Of a stretch of 64,000 bases of DNA, positions 36,470 to 53,827 are shown one piece after another (position 1 is the first letter of the stretch; each line of letters begins with the position of its first letter). Both the position numbers and the translations under genes were made by a program. The notes below the pieces were generated by a model. The model was not told the origin of the DNA and searched no databases. It was given only the letters and a program-made list of their open reading frames with translations. Source of the DNA: Octopus vulgaris (lineage: Eukaryota); NCBI GenBank assembly GCA_951406725.2, contig OX597817.1:86800001-86864000 (forward strand), read 5' to 3'.

Positions 36470-36628
36470 GTAGGTCCCGGGTTGATTCGGGGTTAACCAC
36501 AGTAAATAAGGTACTCAATACATAGCAGAGTAAAATTAATTTATTATATAGAAGGACCTTCTACAGGAGCTTCCTGAAGATTTCTCTTGAATGAAACAGT
36601 TCTAGTCCTGTAGAAGCTCCTTCTATAT
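36470..36628. mobile_element. Penelope-like terminus with short inverted duplication and hammerhead-like core
   Basis: tatagaaggaccttctacagga vs tcctgtagaagctccttctata; CTGAAGA-tttc-tctt-gaat-GAAA-cag-TT at 36574-36601; flanked by (TA)n. Confidence 0.55.
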
Positions 36629-37133
36629 ATATATATATATATATATATATATATATATATATATATATATGTATTATGTATGTATAGACTCCTTTATATA
36701 TGTATACTCATGCACAAACGTCACTGCCAATAGTGAGAGTGAGATGATTTATTCCTGTGATATTTTGAATATATCAGTGATATATCCACACACACTCACA
36801 CAGGCACACGCATATGCATGTGCATGTGTATGTGTGTGTGTATGCGTGTGCATGTCTGTGCATGAGTTTTATGTGAGTGAACATGCGCATGCCGCGCGCT
36901 CGCGTATATACTGTTGCCCACTCTCCAAGTTGACAGATCGTCAAGGATTTATTATTCCTAATTTGCAAATACATATTCATGTGTGTGTTATACAGACAGA
37001 CAGACAAACAGACACACACACACACACACACGCACACACACACATATATATATACTACATATGTGGAAAATCTGTGTGTGTTTGTTAGTGGCGTTGTTAG
37101 CTAACTCCTCCTACATCGTTTTATTGATTTTGG

Positions 37134-37546
37134 TGTCTTGAAACCTCGTGAAATACTTAGATTGTTGAAAAATCGATAATACGGCCCCTGGAAGGGACCG
37201 TTACACCTACCTCATATAGCTAATTTTTTTAAACACCCATGCGAAATAACCCATAGCACCTATATACTATTTTTTAAAAGCTCAAGGGAAATAACCCATT
37301 TTATTGTTTATGTTCGATTAATTTGAATATTATTATTTTTTGTGTGTCCTATGTTTGAGTTTTGCAAACAATATCACTTTTATACTTTATTTGACACGTG
37401 AGTAGAACCCATGTCTGGAAACTTCGTGATATACTTGGATTCTTGAAAAAAAATCGATAATAGGGCCTTTCCAATGGATCCTTCTATCTACTACATATAA
37501 CTAATATTTTCTTTAAACAACACAAGGAAAATAACCCATACCACCT
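37134..37546. repeat. Diverged direct repeat (~130 bp x2)
   Basis: 37134-37260 vs 37412-37546 (gaaac.tcgtga.atactt.gatt.ttgaaaaatcgataata...aaataacccata.cacct). Confidence 0.75.
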
Positions 37547-38648
37547 GCAGATTTTAACGAAGCTATCAATATTTGATTTTCACGATTAGCCGGCCTAATT
37601 CTGCATTTCACTACTCAGTTTTGAACTGCTAAACATTATTATTGCACTTCTTTAATTTGAATCTTAAACATTAAAGACTTCATTCATACATTTCTATACA
37701 TACATACTCTTTTGAATGCCCATTACTCCGATAATTCTGCATTTTTACAGTTACACTTTTCCATGACAGTAGATAAATTTTTTATTCCACAACTTATTTC
37801 TAGTGGCTTCATACAGGCACAGCGTAGATTATCGACTGCCGCCAAATTTTACTTAACACTTCAACAGCGCTTTTCTCACGGTAAAACAATAGTTTTTCTG
37901 CGAATAACAGCAGTTATACATTTCCCAGATGCCTTCGGTAAGCAGACTGATGTCTTTGCCTCTCACCAACCTCTGACAACCTCTCTCACCAACCTCCGAC
38001 AATCTTTCTCGCTAATCCCCGCTAATCCCCGAAAACCTCTCTCGCCAACCTTAAACAATCTCTCCCTCCTCCAGCTGACAGTTCTTTGTATTTTTTCGTG
38101 ACGGAAAATACACATGTCGTGGCAGACCTAACGAAATTGCTTTCTTATATCATAGTAAAAATGTGTTTCAATAGAACATCTTCACCCCGGAAATTACCGG
38201 GTACACCAGCTAGTATATATTTATATACATATGTTCGTATAATTATCTATATACCTAATGTAAATACACGAACGGGAGTACATAAATGGCACATATAGAA
38301 ACATGCACTGATAAACTCACGCCCAGCATACTCATGTCAATAGCAAATGATATTGAATAATTGGAAGATGGGTGGAGATGGATACATTGTTCCGGGAACT
38401 TACTTGTACAGTGAACAGAAGTTGTCCTCAAAAAACAGCTATAATACACACAGTCTGTATATAAAATTATGTAATTTTTATTTTCCTCTGTCCCGCTCCC
38501 CACAACCGTAGCTGGACGCTGCTGATACGCTTCTAATCTTTTTAGCAACATACGAAAAGTTTTCTCAAGACGAATTCAGCAGTTTAATGGCTTTCTACAG
38601 CATTTCCACATTAAGTAAGATATACAGAAAGTTATTCTGACCCAATAA

Positions 38649-39132
38649 CATTGTGTAACAAAATTTTAATTTTTTCTTTTGCCTTTAGTCAGTAAGTGTT
38701 ATTTCCTACTTGCTTTTATCTAGAAATCAAAGGAAACGACTACTATTCCCTTCAGACTTTGCTTTTGTAAACTGGACATCAATGTTTTGAAACATACTTA
38801 TTTTCCATTACATTTCAGACAGATTCAGCGCTGAGTTACTGGAACAGAAATATCGTTATAGCAAATATTCTGCTCAGTACCACAAATTGGCCTGTCAGTT
38901 GCATGACCGTAATCACTTAAGCATGTTCCTTAATGGCTGACAATATATGCATCTCTGATCTTGAGCAGGTGTAGTGTTGAGAGCCATATGTTGAGAGGGA
39001 TTCTTTGGGGTTTGAAAAAATGTAAGAAAAGCAAAGTTGGAAAGAAATATTTGCCATTTTTCGTACTTCATAGGGGTAATCAAAGAGGAAATAAGAGTTT
39101 CTACCCAAGGGCAAAAATCGTGTTACACAGTG
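38649..39132 (-). mobile_element. Non-autonomous DNA transposon, CAC...GTG family (Chapaev3-like), copy 2
   Basis: TAA|CATTGTGTAAC...GTTACACAGTG|TAA, with subterminal inverted repeats (ttatttcct / aggaaataa). Confidence 0.75.
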
Positions 39133-39251
39133 TAATGCTTCCTTCACCTATGATTAATAATATTCTTTTTTTCTCCTCTCATTATGTGCAAATTTTACGA
39201 ATAACCCAACTCTTTTAACATGGAATACGTTGCTACTGACCAGCTATCGTA

Positions 39252-51108: not shown

Positions 51109-51238
51109 TTGGCGTGTCCACCGAACCGTGACGGCTAAGCCACATACTGATTGGTCGAAATACAGTTAGAATTTAGTTGGCGCGCTCACCAAACCGCGAC
51201 ATCTAAGCAACATTCTGATTGGTCAAAATACAGTTCGT
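51109..51238. repeat. Two ~68-bp tandem copies containing CTGATTGGTC
   Basis: ttggcgtgtccaccgaaccgtgacggctaagccacatactgattggtcgaaatacagtt x2, diverged. Confidence 0.8.
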
Positions 51239-51534
51239 AAAATTCAGCCTGCTTGGGTCCATCAAAAAGTATTTGTAGGATAAATCTAACCATTTCAGTA
51301 CAGTTTTCAACAGTGGAACATGACTGTCATAAACCTGACGAACCCATATCGTAAAATTGTAAAAATAGCAAATAATAAAACGTGAAAATCAGACTAAGAT
51401 GGAATTTTATTGATATATTCTTCTATTCACAATCATACAAACTCGGATATCTATCTATCTATCTATCTATCTATCTATCTATCTATCTATCTATCTATCT
51501 ATCTATCTATCTATCTATCTATCTATCTATCTTT

Positions 51535-52490
51535 AACAAAGTAATTTGAGGGTTACCGCACGAGTAAACATATATGGGAAAGAGTCTGAAAATGCAAGAG
51601 TCTTATGAAAGTATTTATTAACTTAACCAGTTTCACTTATTTTCAAAGATTTTCGATAGTAAAGTGTGAGGTTTTGTGTATTCTCTGTCGTGTCCAAAGT
51701 TAGTTTACAAAAATGTATTCAATTTAAGTGAATTGTCTTTGACAATGATAAGAAAAGTTTTGAGGCTTTGCGTATCCTCTGTGATGAGTCATAAAATAGC
51801 TTACATAAAAACATTCAGATCAGGTAATAAAATTGTTTTATATAATGATAGGAAGAAAAAAATAGTTTACAAGACTATATATATCCCAATCAAGTAATTG
51901 TGTTTTTGACAAGGAGATAAAATGTGTGTATCCTCTGTGATGAGTCAAGAAATAGTTTACATAAAAACATTCAGATCAGGTAATAAAACTTTTTATAATG
52001 ATAAGAATATCAAAATTAGTTTTCATGAATATATCCCGATCATGTGATAGAGTCTTTGACAAGAAGATAAAATATGTAACAGACCATTTAAAGTTCTCGG
52101 ATTTGGCTTCTAAGGGTCTTGCATTTGGTTTCTAAAATTCTTGCATCTGGCTTTTAAGGGTCTTGCATCAAAGACTCTATTACTTGATCGGGTTATATTC
52201 ATGTAAACTAATTTTGATCTTAGCATTATAAAAAGAATATTCCCTGATCTGAATGTAAACTGTTTTATGACTCATCACAGTCATATGTGACTCATCGCAA
52301 AACTTTTCTTATCATTGTCAAAGACTCTATCACTTGATTCGAATACATTCTTGTAAACTAATTTTTGACACCATAAAGGATACACAAGACCTGACACTTT
52401 ACTTTTGAAGATCTTTGTAATTAAGTGAAACCGGTTAAGTTAATAAATACTTTTAAAAGACTCCTGCATTTTTAGATTCTTTTCCTTATA
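51535..52490. mobile_element. Large inverted-repeat element between microsatellites, probable Penelope-like inverted terminus
   Basis: Arms ~51572-52060 vs ~52168-52490; ~155-bp internal tandem duplication; 22-bp repeats in the spacer; hammerhead-like actt-TTGAAGA-..-GAAACCGGTT-aagt at 52401-52440. Confidence 0.7.
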
Positions 52491-52705
52491 CACACACATA
52501 CACACACACACATATGCATATATATATGTATATTATATATATATATATATATATATATATATATAGAGAGAGAGAGAGAGAGAGAGAGAGAGAGAGATAG
52601 AGATAGAGATAGAGATATAGATAGAGAGAGAGATAGAGAGAAAGTAAAAGAATGTTTAGAGTGTTTAATCATAAAAAGAAGTAAGAACTTACTGTATTAA
52701 CTAAC

Positions 52706-52748
52706 TAGCTATCTGTTTCGATCGCTTTAAGACGATCTAGTCATGCTG
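52706..52748 (-). ncRNA. Minimal hammerhead-like motif, A3-U8 core variant
   Basis: Minus strand AGC-ATGACTA-GATCG-tcttaaag-CGATC-GAAA-caga-TA-GCT; perfect 5-bp stem II, weak 3-bp stem I. Confidence 0.5.
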
Positions 52749-53827
52749 AAATAAAAGGGGATATAATTTGAATAAAATAAAATAAAAATAATCTTACGTT
52801 ATATCACTTCTGGAAGTTCACGTTTTTCTTATAAAGATCACATGATGCTGTATTTCATTTCCTTCTGATTTTTTTCTAGTTGGTAGTGGATGTCTGTGGT
52901 GGTCCGGCTTGTGAAAGTGACAGCATGTTGGGCTGTTAGTAGTAGTAGTAGTAGTAGTATCTATCTATCTATCTATCTATCTATCTATCTATCTATCTAT
53001 CTATCTATCTATCTATCTATCTATTTATTTATTTATCTATTTATCTATCTGTCTGTGTGTATATATATATACACACACACACACACACACACACACACAT
53101 ACACACACACACACACACATATATATATATATATATATATATATATATATATATATATATATATATATATATATATGCGTGTGTGTATGTGTTATAGTTG
53201 TTGATGTATACGGAGATGCTACATTTTCTCTGCGGGTTTTCTCGTTGTATTCCTGTATATCATTTGTTTATATAACGTACGCCACTTTTCTATTGTAAAG
53301 CAGCAAATGTTTGATCTTATAATTATTGCTGACTGATCGGTCTTGTTGGAGTAATGAAGGGAAAGAGCGAATTTTATACCAAAGGGTTTCCCAAAGCATA
53401 GTTGCAGATATATTGGAAAAGTTGTGCGTCAGTTGAAAGCATTATTTGAAATTTCTTTTAGTCTTGCAATATTTCCTCCTGTTGACAAAATATTGTTTGC
53501 TTCAGTCAAGTATGGGGATTAAATCAATGGCAATCTCCGGATTTTTAAGATTACTTTTACCAGAGCAGTGTTTCAATTCTGATTACTCTTTTAGAATGTG
53601 ATATAGAAAATCAAAGATAGACGTGTGGGCGAATTTGGTTTTTGAAGTAATGTGAATTTAACCGGGCCTGTTCTATCCAGCTGGTATCTCTTAATGAGCA
53701 GTGAATTCTGAATATTGCTTTCAAGTAAAATAAACCGTGGCATTCGATTATTGCGATAGAACAATCATAAATACGCTTTATACGAAAACACGAAAAATTA
53801 ACACACTAAAATGCATAATTACGTATA

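What the first reader, a model, noticed from the sequence alone, without database searches (positions are those of the whole stretch)
36470..52830. Cluster of microsatellite-associated Penelope-like termini carrying minimal hammerheads with covarying catalytic cores
Seen: at least six unrelated short elements in ~16 kb (36470, 40735, 41281, 48198, 51535, ~52640) sit in or beside simple repeats. Three share one architecture: a longer minus-strand terminus joined to an inverted plus-strand copy. Each has NUGNNNA-stem II-GAAA-short stem III-UH. Positions 3/8 read C-G (36574, 48262), U-A (41673), A-U (52744) and U-G (52405). Knowledge: C3-G8 is a tertiary Watson-Crick pair that tolerates compensatory change, and PLEs carry minimal dimer-dependent type I hammerheads. 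Inference: a diverse population of variant ribozymes under selection in cephalopod retroelements, invisible to CUGANGA searches.
Basis: partly seen in the sequence, partly recalled or inferred. Interest (0 to 1): 0.75.

Follow-up and report, generated by a model that had tools for sequence, protein, structure and literature searches.

The report
Core-swapped hammerheads in Penelope retroelements
These six short inserts are ends of Penelope-type jumping genes (three tied to the element's enzyme gene, three assigned by their layout) that carry predicted self-cutting hammerhead RNAs, and across this genome whole high-copy families use each of the four possible base pairs at one key catalytic-core position, which likely means the ribozyme fold is kept by selection, although cutting is untested.

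Summary
Six repeat-family ends lie at the stated places, each with a type I hammerhead motif. The 3-8 core pair is a family trait, not noise: U-A in 36 of 36 arms (41673 family), A-U in 30 of 35 (52744, minus strand), C-G in the 36574 and 48262 families. The U-G at 52405 is single-copy decay (family U-A in 30 of 34). Outside the window I found a second A3-U8 family (27 of 31) and a G3-C8 family (54 of 59 arms), so all four Watson-Crick pairs occur. In 1 Mb sampled blind, 20 of 20 strict hits were Watson-Crick (12 C-G, 8 U-A). Three window families link to Neptune/Nematis-type RT-GIY-YIG genes and show the known one-sided tail and inverted arms. The 'cluster' is only a modest excess over about 65 insertions per Mb. 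PLE hammerheads and U3-A8 are published (2011, 2014); natural high-copy A3-U8 and G3-C8 families were not found in my searches, but key papers were not held. The scan has already noted PLE hammerheads in this genome and A3-U8 in a phage. Cleavage is untested.

The parts
36470..36625 (.). Short two-armed element between (TA)n runs: minus arm 36470-36568 with a tail of about 76 nt, joined to plus arm 36569-36625. No enzyme gene linked; PLE assignment inferred from layout.
   Evidence: 746 first-look candidates; family alignment; 30 of 30 loci within 100 nt of a microsatellite vs 0.25 for random positions
36565..36621 (+). Type I hammerhead, C3-G8, U10.1-U11.1 mismatch, 4-bp helix III, predicted cut after 36612
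   Evidence: C-G in 36 of 36 arms
40731..40920 (-). Decayed copy of an abundant family; minimal hammerhead with C3 at 40841, C3-G8 but U at position 6
   Evidence: 2,433 candidates; U6 in 29 of 32 and C-G in 24 of 32 arms; 28 insertions per Mb including an A6 sister subfamily
41281..41446 (-). Inverted, 5'-truncated arm of a young PLE with the 34-nt tail (41281-41314)
   Evidence: two fixed 3' ends at +134 and +168 from the predicted cut
41447..41832 (+). 3' end of a Neptune/Nematis-type PLE: last codons of the GIY-YIG domain (about 41449-41553), 3' UTR and pseudo-LTR
   Evidence: translation matches the end of the 489-aa RT-EN frame in L008; 1,433 candidates, best 40 at 98-100% identity
41666..41705 (+). 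Minimal hammerhead, U3-A8, 7-bp helix I, 2-bp helix II, CCGG palindrome, predicted cut after 41698
   Evidence: U-A in 36 of 36 arms; the predicted lowest-energy dimer is the hammerhead dimer
48196..48358 (+). Short abundant element with a textbook minimal hammerhead (C3 at 48262, C3-G8, extra A before helix II, CG palindrome). No enzyme gene linked.
   Evidence: 1,836 candidates; C-G in 41 of 43 arms; 16 insertions per Mb
51535..51731 (-). Inverted arm with 36-nt tail (51535-51570) and a second, decayed hammerhead copy (U4 changed to C, helix I broken)
51732..52490 (+). PLE 3' UTR with internal repeats and hammerhead at 52401-52440; family core U3-A8, this copy decayed to U3/G8
   Evidence: U-A in 30 of 34 distinct arms, G8 only in the window copy; EN remnant upstream on the same strand in L320
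52645..52945 (-). Old PLE 3' end; hammerhead with A3 at 52744, A3-U8 core, 5-bp helix II, helix III palindrome decayed in this copy; pyrimidine-rich tract ending in CAG (splice-acceptor-like) abuts helix I
   Evidence: A-U in 30 of 35 arms; family alignment; ORF remnants upstream in L032, L044, L047

Best explanation
The six elements are independent insertions of 3' ends of Penelope-like retroelements (three tied to an RT-GIY-YIG gene, three inferred from layout), each carrying a predicted type I hammerhead whose 3-8 core pair differs by family and is likely kept complementary by selection on the transposing master elements. Shown: family-level cores C-G, U-A, A-U and (outside the window) G-C; two fixed 3' ends, random 5' truncation, inverted arms with a one-sided tail; (TA)n-type flanks in most families. 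From the literature: the PLE protein nicks AT-rich DNA on both strands and starts reverse transcription at two internal RNA sites, which produces the tail (PMC11167929); C3 and G8 pair in the active fold and a C3G/G8C swap partly rescues a PLE hammerhead in the presence of its protein (same paper). Inferred: transcripts of tandem master copies fold as hammerhead dimers through the helix III palindrome, probably with help from the element's protein, and cut slowly to trim read-through RNA; most insertions are copied from uncut RNA; copies decay neutrally afterwards (U-G at 52405). A rough protein tree suggests a path C-G to U-A to A-U inside one lineage, with G-C arising separately.
For: Family tallies: U-A 36 of 36 and 30 of 34; A-U 30 of 35 and 27 of 31; G-C 54 of 59. 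Blind 1-Mb sample, positions 3/6/7/8 free: 20 hits, 12 C-G, 8 U-A, none in the other 14 combinations; five shuffles gave 0, 0, 1, 0, 1. No multi-copy family had a non-Watson-Crick majority in the clusterings (with follow-ups 57, 68). Helix II base pair 10.1-11.1 in the 52744 family is G-C in 9, A-U in 14, G-U in 4, A-C in 1 of 35 arms (probably one or a few events between subfamilies). ORF links: L008 frame has RT motifs, a CX4CX2C linker, GIY-YIG and CCHH; ORF remnants in 4 of 30 loci of the 52744 family, 2 loci of the 52405 family, 20 of 30 loci of the second A3-U8 family. Tail on exactly one arm in 19 of 19 inverted pairs among 49 distinct loci, as described in PMC8557442.
Against: No cleavage data. 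No genomic footprint of cutting: 2 of 68 arms have their 5' end within 3 nt of the predicted cut and 58 of 68 run across it; 1 of the 33 arms from the 3'-only search is within 3 nt. In PMC11167929 hammerhead mutants did not impair insertion in vitro. Only 1 of 6 window copies (41673) has the hammerhead dimer as its predicted lowest-energy dimer. Pfam scores for the L008 frame are below the curated cut-offs (RVT_1 E 0.004, GIY-YIG E 0.024). The 36574, 40841, 48262 and G3-C8 families have no ORF link in my loci. A-U and G-C were not above the null in the blind sample under the looser descriptor (1 hit each), so they rest on family alignments, whose members were picked by likeness to one query copy. 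Independent switches may be as few as three, which alone gives a chance figure of only about 0.02-0.04 (my arithmetic). I spotted the second A3-U8 family by eye in an ORF's 3' UTR. The U6 core of the 40841 family would be expected to weaken cleavage (A6C is slow in PMC3088659).
Confidence: 0.8

Rival explanations
1. The hammerhead fold is kept as a structural signal (protein binding or positioning of reverse transcription), and the variant cores cut little or not at all in vivo.
For: No pile-up of 5' ends at the cut site; uncut RNA is the main substrate and no RNA-seq reads ended at the site for an anole PLE (PMC11167929); low in vitro rates of minimal hammerheads (PMC4209133); the very abundant U6 family and a C4 subfamily carry changes expected to slow catalysis.
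Against: The 3-8 pair is a feature of the catalytically active fold (PMC3884650); all families keep G5, A9, GAAA and UH; no family majority has G at 17 in the alignments seen.
Confidence: 0.12
2. The variants are drift: dead hammerheads carried by masters that amplified regardless, with 3-8 complementarity by chance.
For: Few independent switches (tree, A-U group support only 62); Naiad PLEs are reported to amplify without canonical hammerheads (PMC8557442).
Against: Six non-C3 families (three U-A, two A-U, one G-C) all complementary, none mismatched; helices I-III intact in each majority; 0 of 20 non-Watson-Crick strict hits; the young 98-100% identical family differs from its sister (L187, L198) in loop II and position 17, not in the core.
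Confidence: 0.05
3. The six inserts form a functional cluster, for example cooperating ribozymes in one host transcript.
For: Six in 16.4 kb against about 1 expected; only 1 of 100 blind 10-kb segments had 3 insertions.
Against: Unrelated families of very different ages (about 70-100% identity to relatives), on both strands, three of six decayed, different palindromes; region chosen after the fact and six of ten families defined from it; the whole window has 7 vs 4.2 expected.
Confidence: 0.03

Closest known systems
Minimal hammerheads of metazoan PLE pseudo-LTRs (Cervera and De la Pena 2014, PMC4209133; parts 1-2 of 4 of the text and parts 1-2 of 3 of supplement file 2 read; supplement file 1 not searchable)
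   Same: Type I, no or palindromic helix III, extra nucleotide after A9, mostly truncated single copies, pairs on opposite strands 100-700 bp apart, U3-A8 variant (about 1,300 hits in S. mansoni); D. virilis form has an intron 3' end at helix I, like the CAG tract of the 52744 family.
   Different: Their 56-motif alignment shows only C3-G8, U3-A8 and one U3/G8 example. Here A3-U8 (two families), G3-C8 and U6 are family majorities.
Natural core variants in Perreault et al. 2011 (PMC3088659; passages read)
   Same: Natural U3-A8, a position-6 variant (A6C), 2-bp helix II and U10.1-U11.1 mismatch are all described there.
   Different: Rare single examples, not high-copy retroelement families; A3-U8, G3-C8 and U6 were not in the passages I saw.
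Neptune/Nematis clades of EN+ PLEs (features as given in Craig et al. 2021, PMC8557442; passages and section 11 read, supplement searched by term)
   Same: RT followed by C-terminal GIY-YIG, CX2-5CxxC linker, CCHH, 30-40 bp one-sided tail, inverted truncated copy, microsatellite targets.
   Different: Neptune vs Nematis not resolved. Not Hydra, which lacks CCHH and has a CxCX5C linker; not Naiad, whose EN is N-terminal.
Anole Poseidon PLE studied in vitro (Frangieh et al. 2024, PMC11167929; parts 1-2 of 4 read)
   Same: Two RT start sites explain the tail; protein-assisted hammerhead; C3G/G8C double mutant partly active.
   Different: G3-C8 there is an engineered mutant; here it is the natural majority of a family with 1,489 first-look candidates.
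Stem-III-reduced PLE hammerheads of Lunse, Weinberg and Breaker (PMC5785218; not held, seen only as a reference and through the review PMC6765202)
   Same: By title and review: many small variants linked to PLEs that cleave as dimers.
   Different: Cannot tell; it may already list 3-8 variants, which is the main doubt on novelty.

Membership tests
Type I (minimal) hammerhead ribozyme | Core U4, G5, A9, G12-A13-A14, A15.1-U16.1, H17 | tested here: met
   Family majorities
Type I (minimal) hammerhead ribozyme | Watson-Crick pair between positions 3 and 8 | tested here: met
   All family majorities; not met in the single window copy at 52405
Type I (minimal) hammerhead ribozyme | A at position 6 | tested here: not met
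   Not met for the 40841 family (U6 in 29 of 32); met for the other five window families
Type I (minimal) hammerhead ribozyme | Helices I and II flanking the core; helix III short or palindromic | tested here: met
   helix I of the 52744 family is only 2-4 bp; 36574 has a 4-bp helix III
Type I (minimal) hammerhead ribozyme | Match to an Rfam hammerhead model | tested here: not met
   None among the 150 listed of 307 matches in the window, none in focused scans of 36540-36622 and 48200-48350
Type I (minimal) hammerhead ribozyme | Site-specific self-cleavage, dimer dependence | not testable with these tools
   Only folding predictions and assembled contigs
Penelope-like element, EN+ (Neptune/Nematis type) | One ORF with RT, CX2-5CxxC linker and C-terminal GIY-YIG with CCHH | tested here: met
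   41673 family, L008 (Pfam scores below cut-off, motifs read by eye); homologous remnants for the 52405, 52744 and second A3-U8 families
Penelope-like element, EN+ (Neptune/Nematis type) | ORF link for the 36574, 40841, 48262 and G3-C8 families | tested here: inconclusive
   None found in 30 loci each; one query protein only; they may be non-autonomous or belong to another clade
Penelope-like element, EN+ (Neptune/Nematis type) | 5' truncation, inverted copy and one-sided 30-40 bp tail | tested here: met
   19 of 19 pairs in the 41673 family; 36-nt tail in the 52405 family; longer tails in the 36574 and G3-C8 families
Penelope-like element, EN+ (Neptune/Nematis type) | Full-length copy flanked by two direct pseudo-LTRs | not tested
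Hydra-clade PLE | No CCHH, CxCX5C linker | tested here: not met
   L008 has CCHH and CX4CX2C; not tested for the four families without an ORF link
Non-LTR retrozyme | Tandem repeat units each with a hammerhead | tested here: not met
   No window element is a tandem array; same-strand extra copies were 0-3 per 30 loci

The most novel reading that the evidence does not exclude
One animal genome holds successful retroelement families that have independently rewired the hammerhead's catalytic 3-8 pair into all four Watson-Crick forms, and one that drops the conserved A6. Natural, high-copy A3-U8 and G3-C8 ribozymes are undescribed and active. Roughly a quarter of these insertions (15 of 65 in the blind Mb) are invisible to CUGANGA searches, and the covariation shows that PLE hammerhead catalysis is under selection in vivo even though it is dispensable for insertion in vitro.
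Probability: 0.4. Interest if true: 0.62.

Novelty: new variant of a known kind. Interest (0 to 1): 0.45.

Why it matters
The role of PLE hammerheads is open: PMC8557442 suggests they may merely ride along, and PMC11167929 found them dispensable for insertion in vitro. Repeated compensatory change at a pair that belongs to the active fold is comparative evidence that the fold is needed, and these families give ready natural constructs to test it. It also means C3-G8-only searches undercount these motifs and can wrongly call an element ribozyme-free. The class, the architecture and U3-A8 are already known, which limits the surprise.

Tried and rejected
Rfam found no hammerhead. My first descriptor missed all six sites because it was too strict on helices II and III. 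Relaxed hits rejected: 45631 lies inside a LINE-like reading frame and has no second copy in hand; 13176 belongs to a repeat family in which the motif is not conserved (12 rows); 23113 has no second copy in hand; 37945, 24978 and 5979 were not followed up. Idea that 5' truncations pile up at the cut site, prompted by the window arm ending 2 nt from it: rejected. Idea that A3 was gained as an AUG start codon: no shared open frame in the 23 copies translated. Loose regular-expression tallies for the two A3-U8 families picked up unrelated sequence and were dropped in favour of alignment tallies. Expression: no RNA holder listed; only assembled contigs could be laid, which cannot show RNA ends. 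Microsatellite association by distance from the locus centre was not raised for the G3-C8 family (12 of 30 within 200 nt vs 0.40 random) and weak for the 52744 family (16 of 30). Papers not held: Lunse 2017, Przybilski and Hammann 2007, Seehafer 2011, Hammann 2012, Lee and York 2008. PMC6257768 and PMC11014351 (passages) added nothing. Paper searches for natural A3-U8 or G3-C8 and for cephalopod hammerheads found no report, but the library lacks most subscription papers and cannot see figures.
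Full report
Setting. The window lies at G000:C4:86,800,001-86,864,000 of a 2.8-Gb assembly in 227 contigs.

1. Observation. The six sites exist. A descriptor for type I minimal hammerheads with positions 3, 6, 7 and 8 free found 5 hits in 36400-52900 (36574, 41673, 48262, 52405 and an extra at 37945) against a mean of 0.5 and a maximum of 2 in 60 block-wise dinucleotide shuffles; with a Watson-Crick 3-8 pair required, 3 against 0.18. 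The motifs at 52744 and 40841 are on the minus strand and partly decayed; they were recovered by a looser descriptor and by family alignment. Rfam gave no hammerhead match. Inverted arms are at 41315-41446/41701-41832 and 51571-51731/52330-52490; the 36470 element has the same layout on a smaller scale.

2. Family or decay. Each element was searched in the genome; 40 candidates were scored per search out of 74 to 2,433 first-look candidates and 30 loci fetched. These are the copies most like the window copy, not a random draw. Tallies of 3/8: 41673 family U-A in 36 of 36 arms, 36574 family C-G in 36 of 36, 48262 family C-G in 41 of 43 (the window's own copy is included and a few overlapping loci count twice); 52405 family U-A in 30 of 34 distinct arms, the only G8 being the window copy; 52744 family A-U in 30 of 35; 40841 family C-G in 24 of 32 with U6 in 29 of 32. 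So U-A, A-U and U6 are inherited family traits and U-G is decay, even though selection by likeness should have favoured G8 copies.

3. Blind sample. One hundred 10-kb stretches at round coordinates on contigs 1-19 gave 20 strict hits, 12 C-G and 8 U-A, none in the other 14 combinations, against 0, 0, 1, 0, 1 in five shuffles. A looser descriptor gave 40 hits: 19 C-G, 9 U-A, 1 A-U, 1 G-C and 10 non-complementary, against 4-11 in ten shuffles; only C-G and U-A stand above that null. Clustering all sequence in hand showed a two-locus G3-C8 candidate. Its genome search returned 1,489 candidates; G-C was read in 54 of 59 arms from 30 loci (two loci are the same element), with a 7-bp helix I, an extra G, a 5-bp helix II and an AUAU palindrome, nearly always as an inverted pair with a one-sided tail of about 55 nt. 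Contigs of four runs labelled as four other organisms cover this family and list no difference above 10% at positions 3 or 8. Reading the 3' UTRs behind PLE frame remnants showed a second A3-U8 motif; its family has 1,090 candidates and A-U in 27 of 31 distinct arms. A third U3-A8 family has 7 rows in hand. No multi-copy family had a mismatched majority.

4. Identity. Locus L008 of the 41673 family holds a 489-aa open frame with RT motifs, a CX4CX2C linker, GIY-YIG and CCHH; Pfam hits are weak (RVT_1 E 0.004, GIY-YIG E 0.024). By the features in PMC8557442 this is Neptune/Nematis type, not Hydra or Naiad. The window's plus arm starts inside the last codons of this frame. Homologous remnants lie upstream of the hammerhead in L032, L044 and L047 and on the inverted side in L037 (52744 family), in L320 and L316 (52405 family), and in 20 of 30 loci of the second A3-U8 family. 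The 36574, 40841, 48262 and G3-C8 families showed no such link and look like short non-autonomous derivatives; that is inference. In the young family, 3' ends fall at +134 or +168 from the predicted cut, 5' ends are scattered, 19 of 49 distinct loci are inverted pairs and 19 of 19 pairs have the tail on one arm only, matching PMC8557442 and the two RT start sites of PMC11167929. Loci within 200 nt of a microsatellite: 27, 16, 22, 30, 22 and 20 of 30 for the families at 41673, 52744, 52405, 36574, 40841 and 48262, against 0.40 for random positions.

5. History. A tree of 17 rows (remnants projected on the L008 frame, unequal coverage, midpoint root, no outgroup) separates two C-G elements and the 52405 family from the 41673 and A-U families with support 100; the group holding both A-U families and three rows of unknown core has support 62. 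This fits C-G to U-A to A-U but does not prove the order. Counting three independent switches, chance complementarity is about 0.02-0.04 (my arithmetic); the helices and the rest of the core being intact add to this. Within the 52744 family the first helix II pair is G-C in 9, A-U in 14, G-U in 4 and A-C in 1 of 35 arms, probably one or a few events. The same family has a conserved pyrimidine tract ending in CAG next to helix I, like the intron end described for D. virilis Penelope; splicing is untested.

6. Against. There is no evidence of cutting. 5' ends do not gather at the cut site (2 of 68 arms within 3 nt, 58 of 68 run across). The predicted lowest-energy dimer is the hammerhead dimer only for 41673 among the six window copies. 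Published minimal PLE hammerheads cut poorly and were dispensable for insertion in vitro.

7. Cluster. Profile searches for ten families gave 65 insertions in the blind Mb; 53, 30, 16 and 1 segments had 0, 1, 2 and 3 insertions; the window has 7 in 64 kb. The 16-kb region is at the high end but was chosen after the fact and supplied six of the ten families. Scaling 65 per Mb to 2.8 Gb gives roughly 180,000 insertions for these families, of which 15 of 65 are not C3-G8; both figures are rough extrapolations.

8. Literature. PLE minimal hammerheads, opposite-strand pairs and U3-A8 are in PMC4209133; its supplementary alignment lists C3-G8, U3-A8 and one U3/G8. Natural U3-A8, A6C, 2-bp helix II and U10.1-U11.1 are in PMC3088659. 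G3-C8 appears as an engineered mutant in PMC11167929 and PMC3884650. Searches found no natural A3-U8 or G3-C8 family and no cephalopod survey, but Lunse 2017 and four other core papers were not held, and figures are not searchable. The abstract, introduction and methods of bioRxiv 10.64898/2026.07.22.740005 concern tandem retrozymes; its supplements were not seen. Earlier scan notes report PLE hammerhead ends in this genome and an A3-U8 core in a phage; a search of notes for the A3-U8/G3-C8 families and for the 52744 sequence gave nothing.

Verdict. Real, largely as described, and a known kind of element. What may be new is that whole high-copy families in one genome use all four Watson-Crick pairs at 3-8, plus a U6 core. 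New variant of a known kind; interest 0.45.

Noticed in passing
L277:4040-4180 (G000:C18, about 30.004 Mb); loci L281-L310: High-copy G3-C8 hammerhead family, short two-armed elements with a variable palindromic junction and a one-sided tail; 4 insertions in the blind Mb; absent from the window.
   Followed up: yes
L196:9170-9360 (minus); loci L341-L370: Second A3-U8 family with a very compact hammerhead (4-bp helix I, 2-bp helix II), ORF-linked, 1,090 candidates.
   Followed up: yes
L223:75-150, L228, L231, L006, L105: Third U3-A8 family with a CGCG palindrome; three copies a few hundred bases apart in L228, possibly a tandem retrozyme-type unit.
   Followed up: partly
blind sample, relatives of the 40841 family: A sister subfamily with a 3-nt loop II keeps A6 but often has C at position 4 (8 of 71 matches), while subfamilies with 4-nt loops have U6.
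   Followed up: partly
window 36574 and 52405; L236, L309: U10.1-U11.1 mismatch recurs in several families (majority in the two window families, single copies in L236 and L309).
   Followed up: no
36574 family, L095-L120: In most copies the inverted arm stops at or within 5 nt of the predicted cut, but helix I microhomology predicts the same junction without cutting, so it is ambiguous.
   Followed up: partly
window 44340-46850: LINE-like endonuclease/RT reading frame on the minus strand (read by eye, no profile search).
   Followed up: no
window 43663-44010: Another inverted-arm element (97-nt arms, 80% complementary) with no hammerhead by my descriptors; two related copies in hand.
   Followed up: partly
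window about 51080-51420: Degraded sequence resembling the 3' end of the C3-G8 PLE in L236, with a partial core.
   Followed up: no
   Followed up: no
window 39287-39569: 82-nt inverted arms, 89% complementary, MITE-like.
   Followed up: no
window 28311-33513: 5.2-kb degenerate AT-rich microsatellite array.
   Followed up: no
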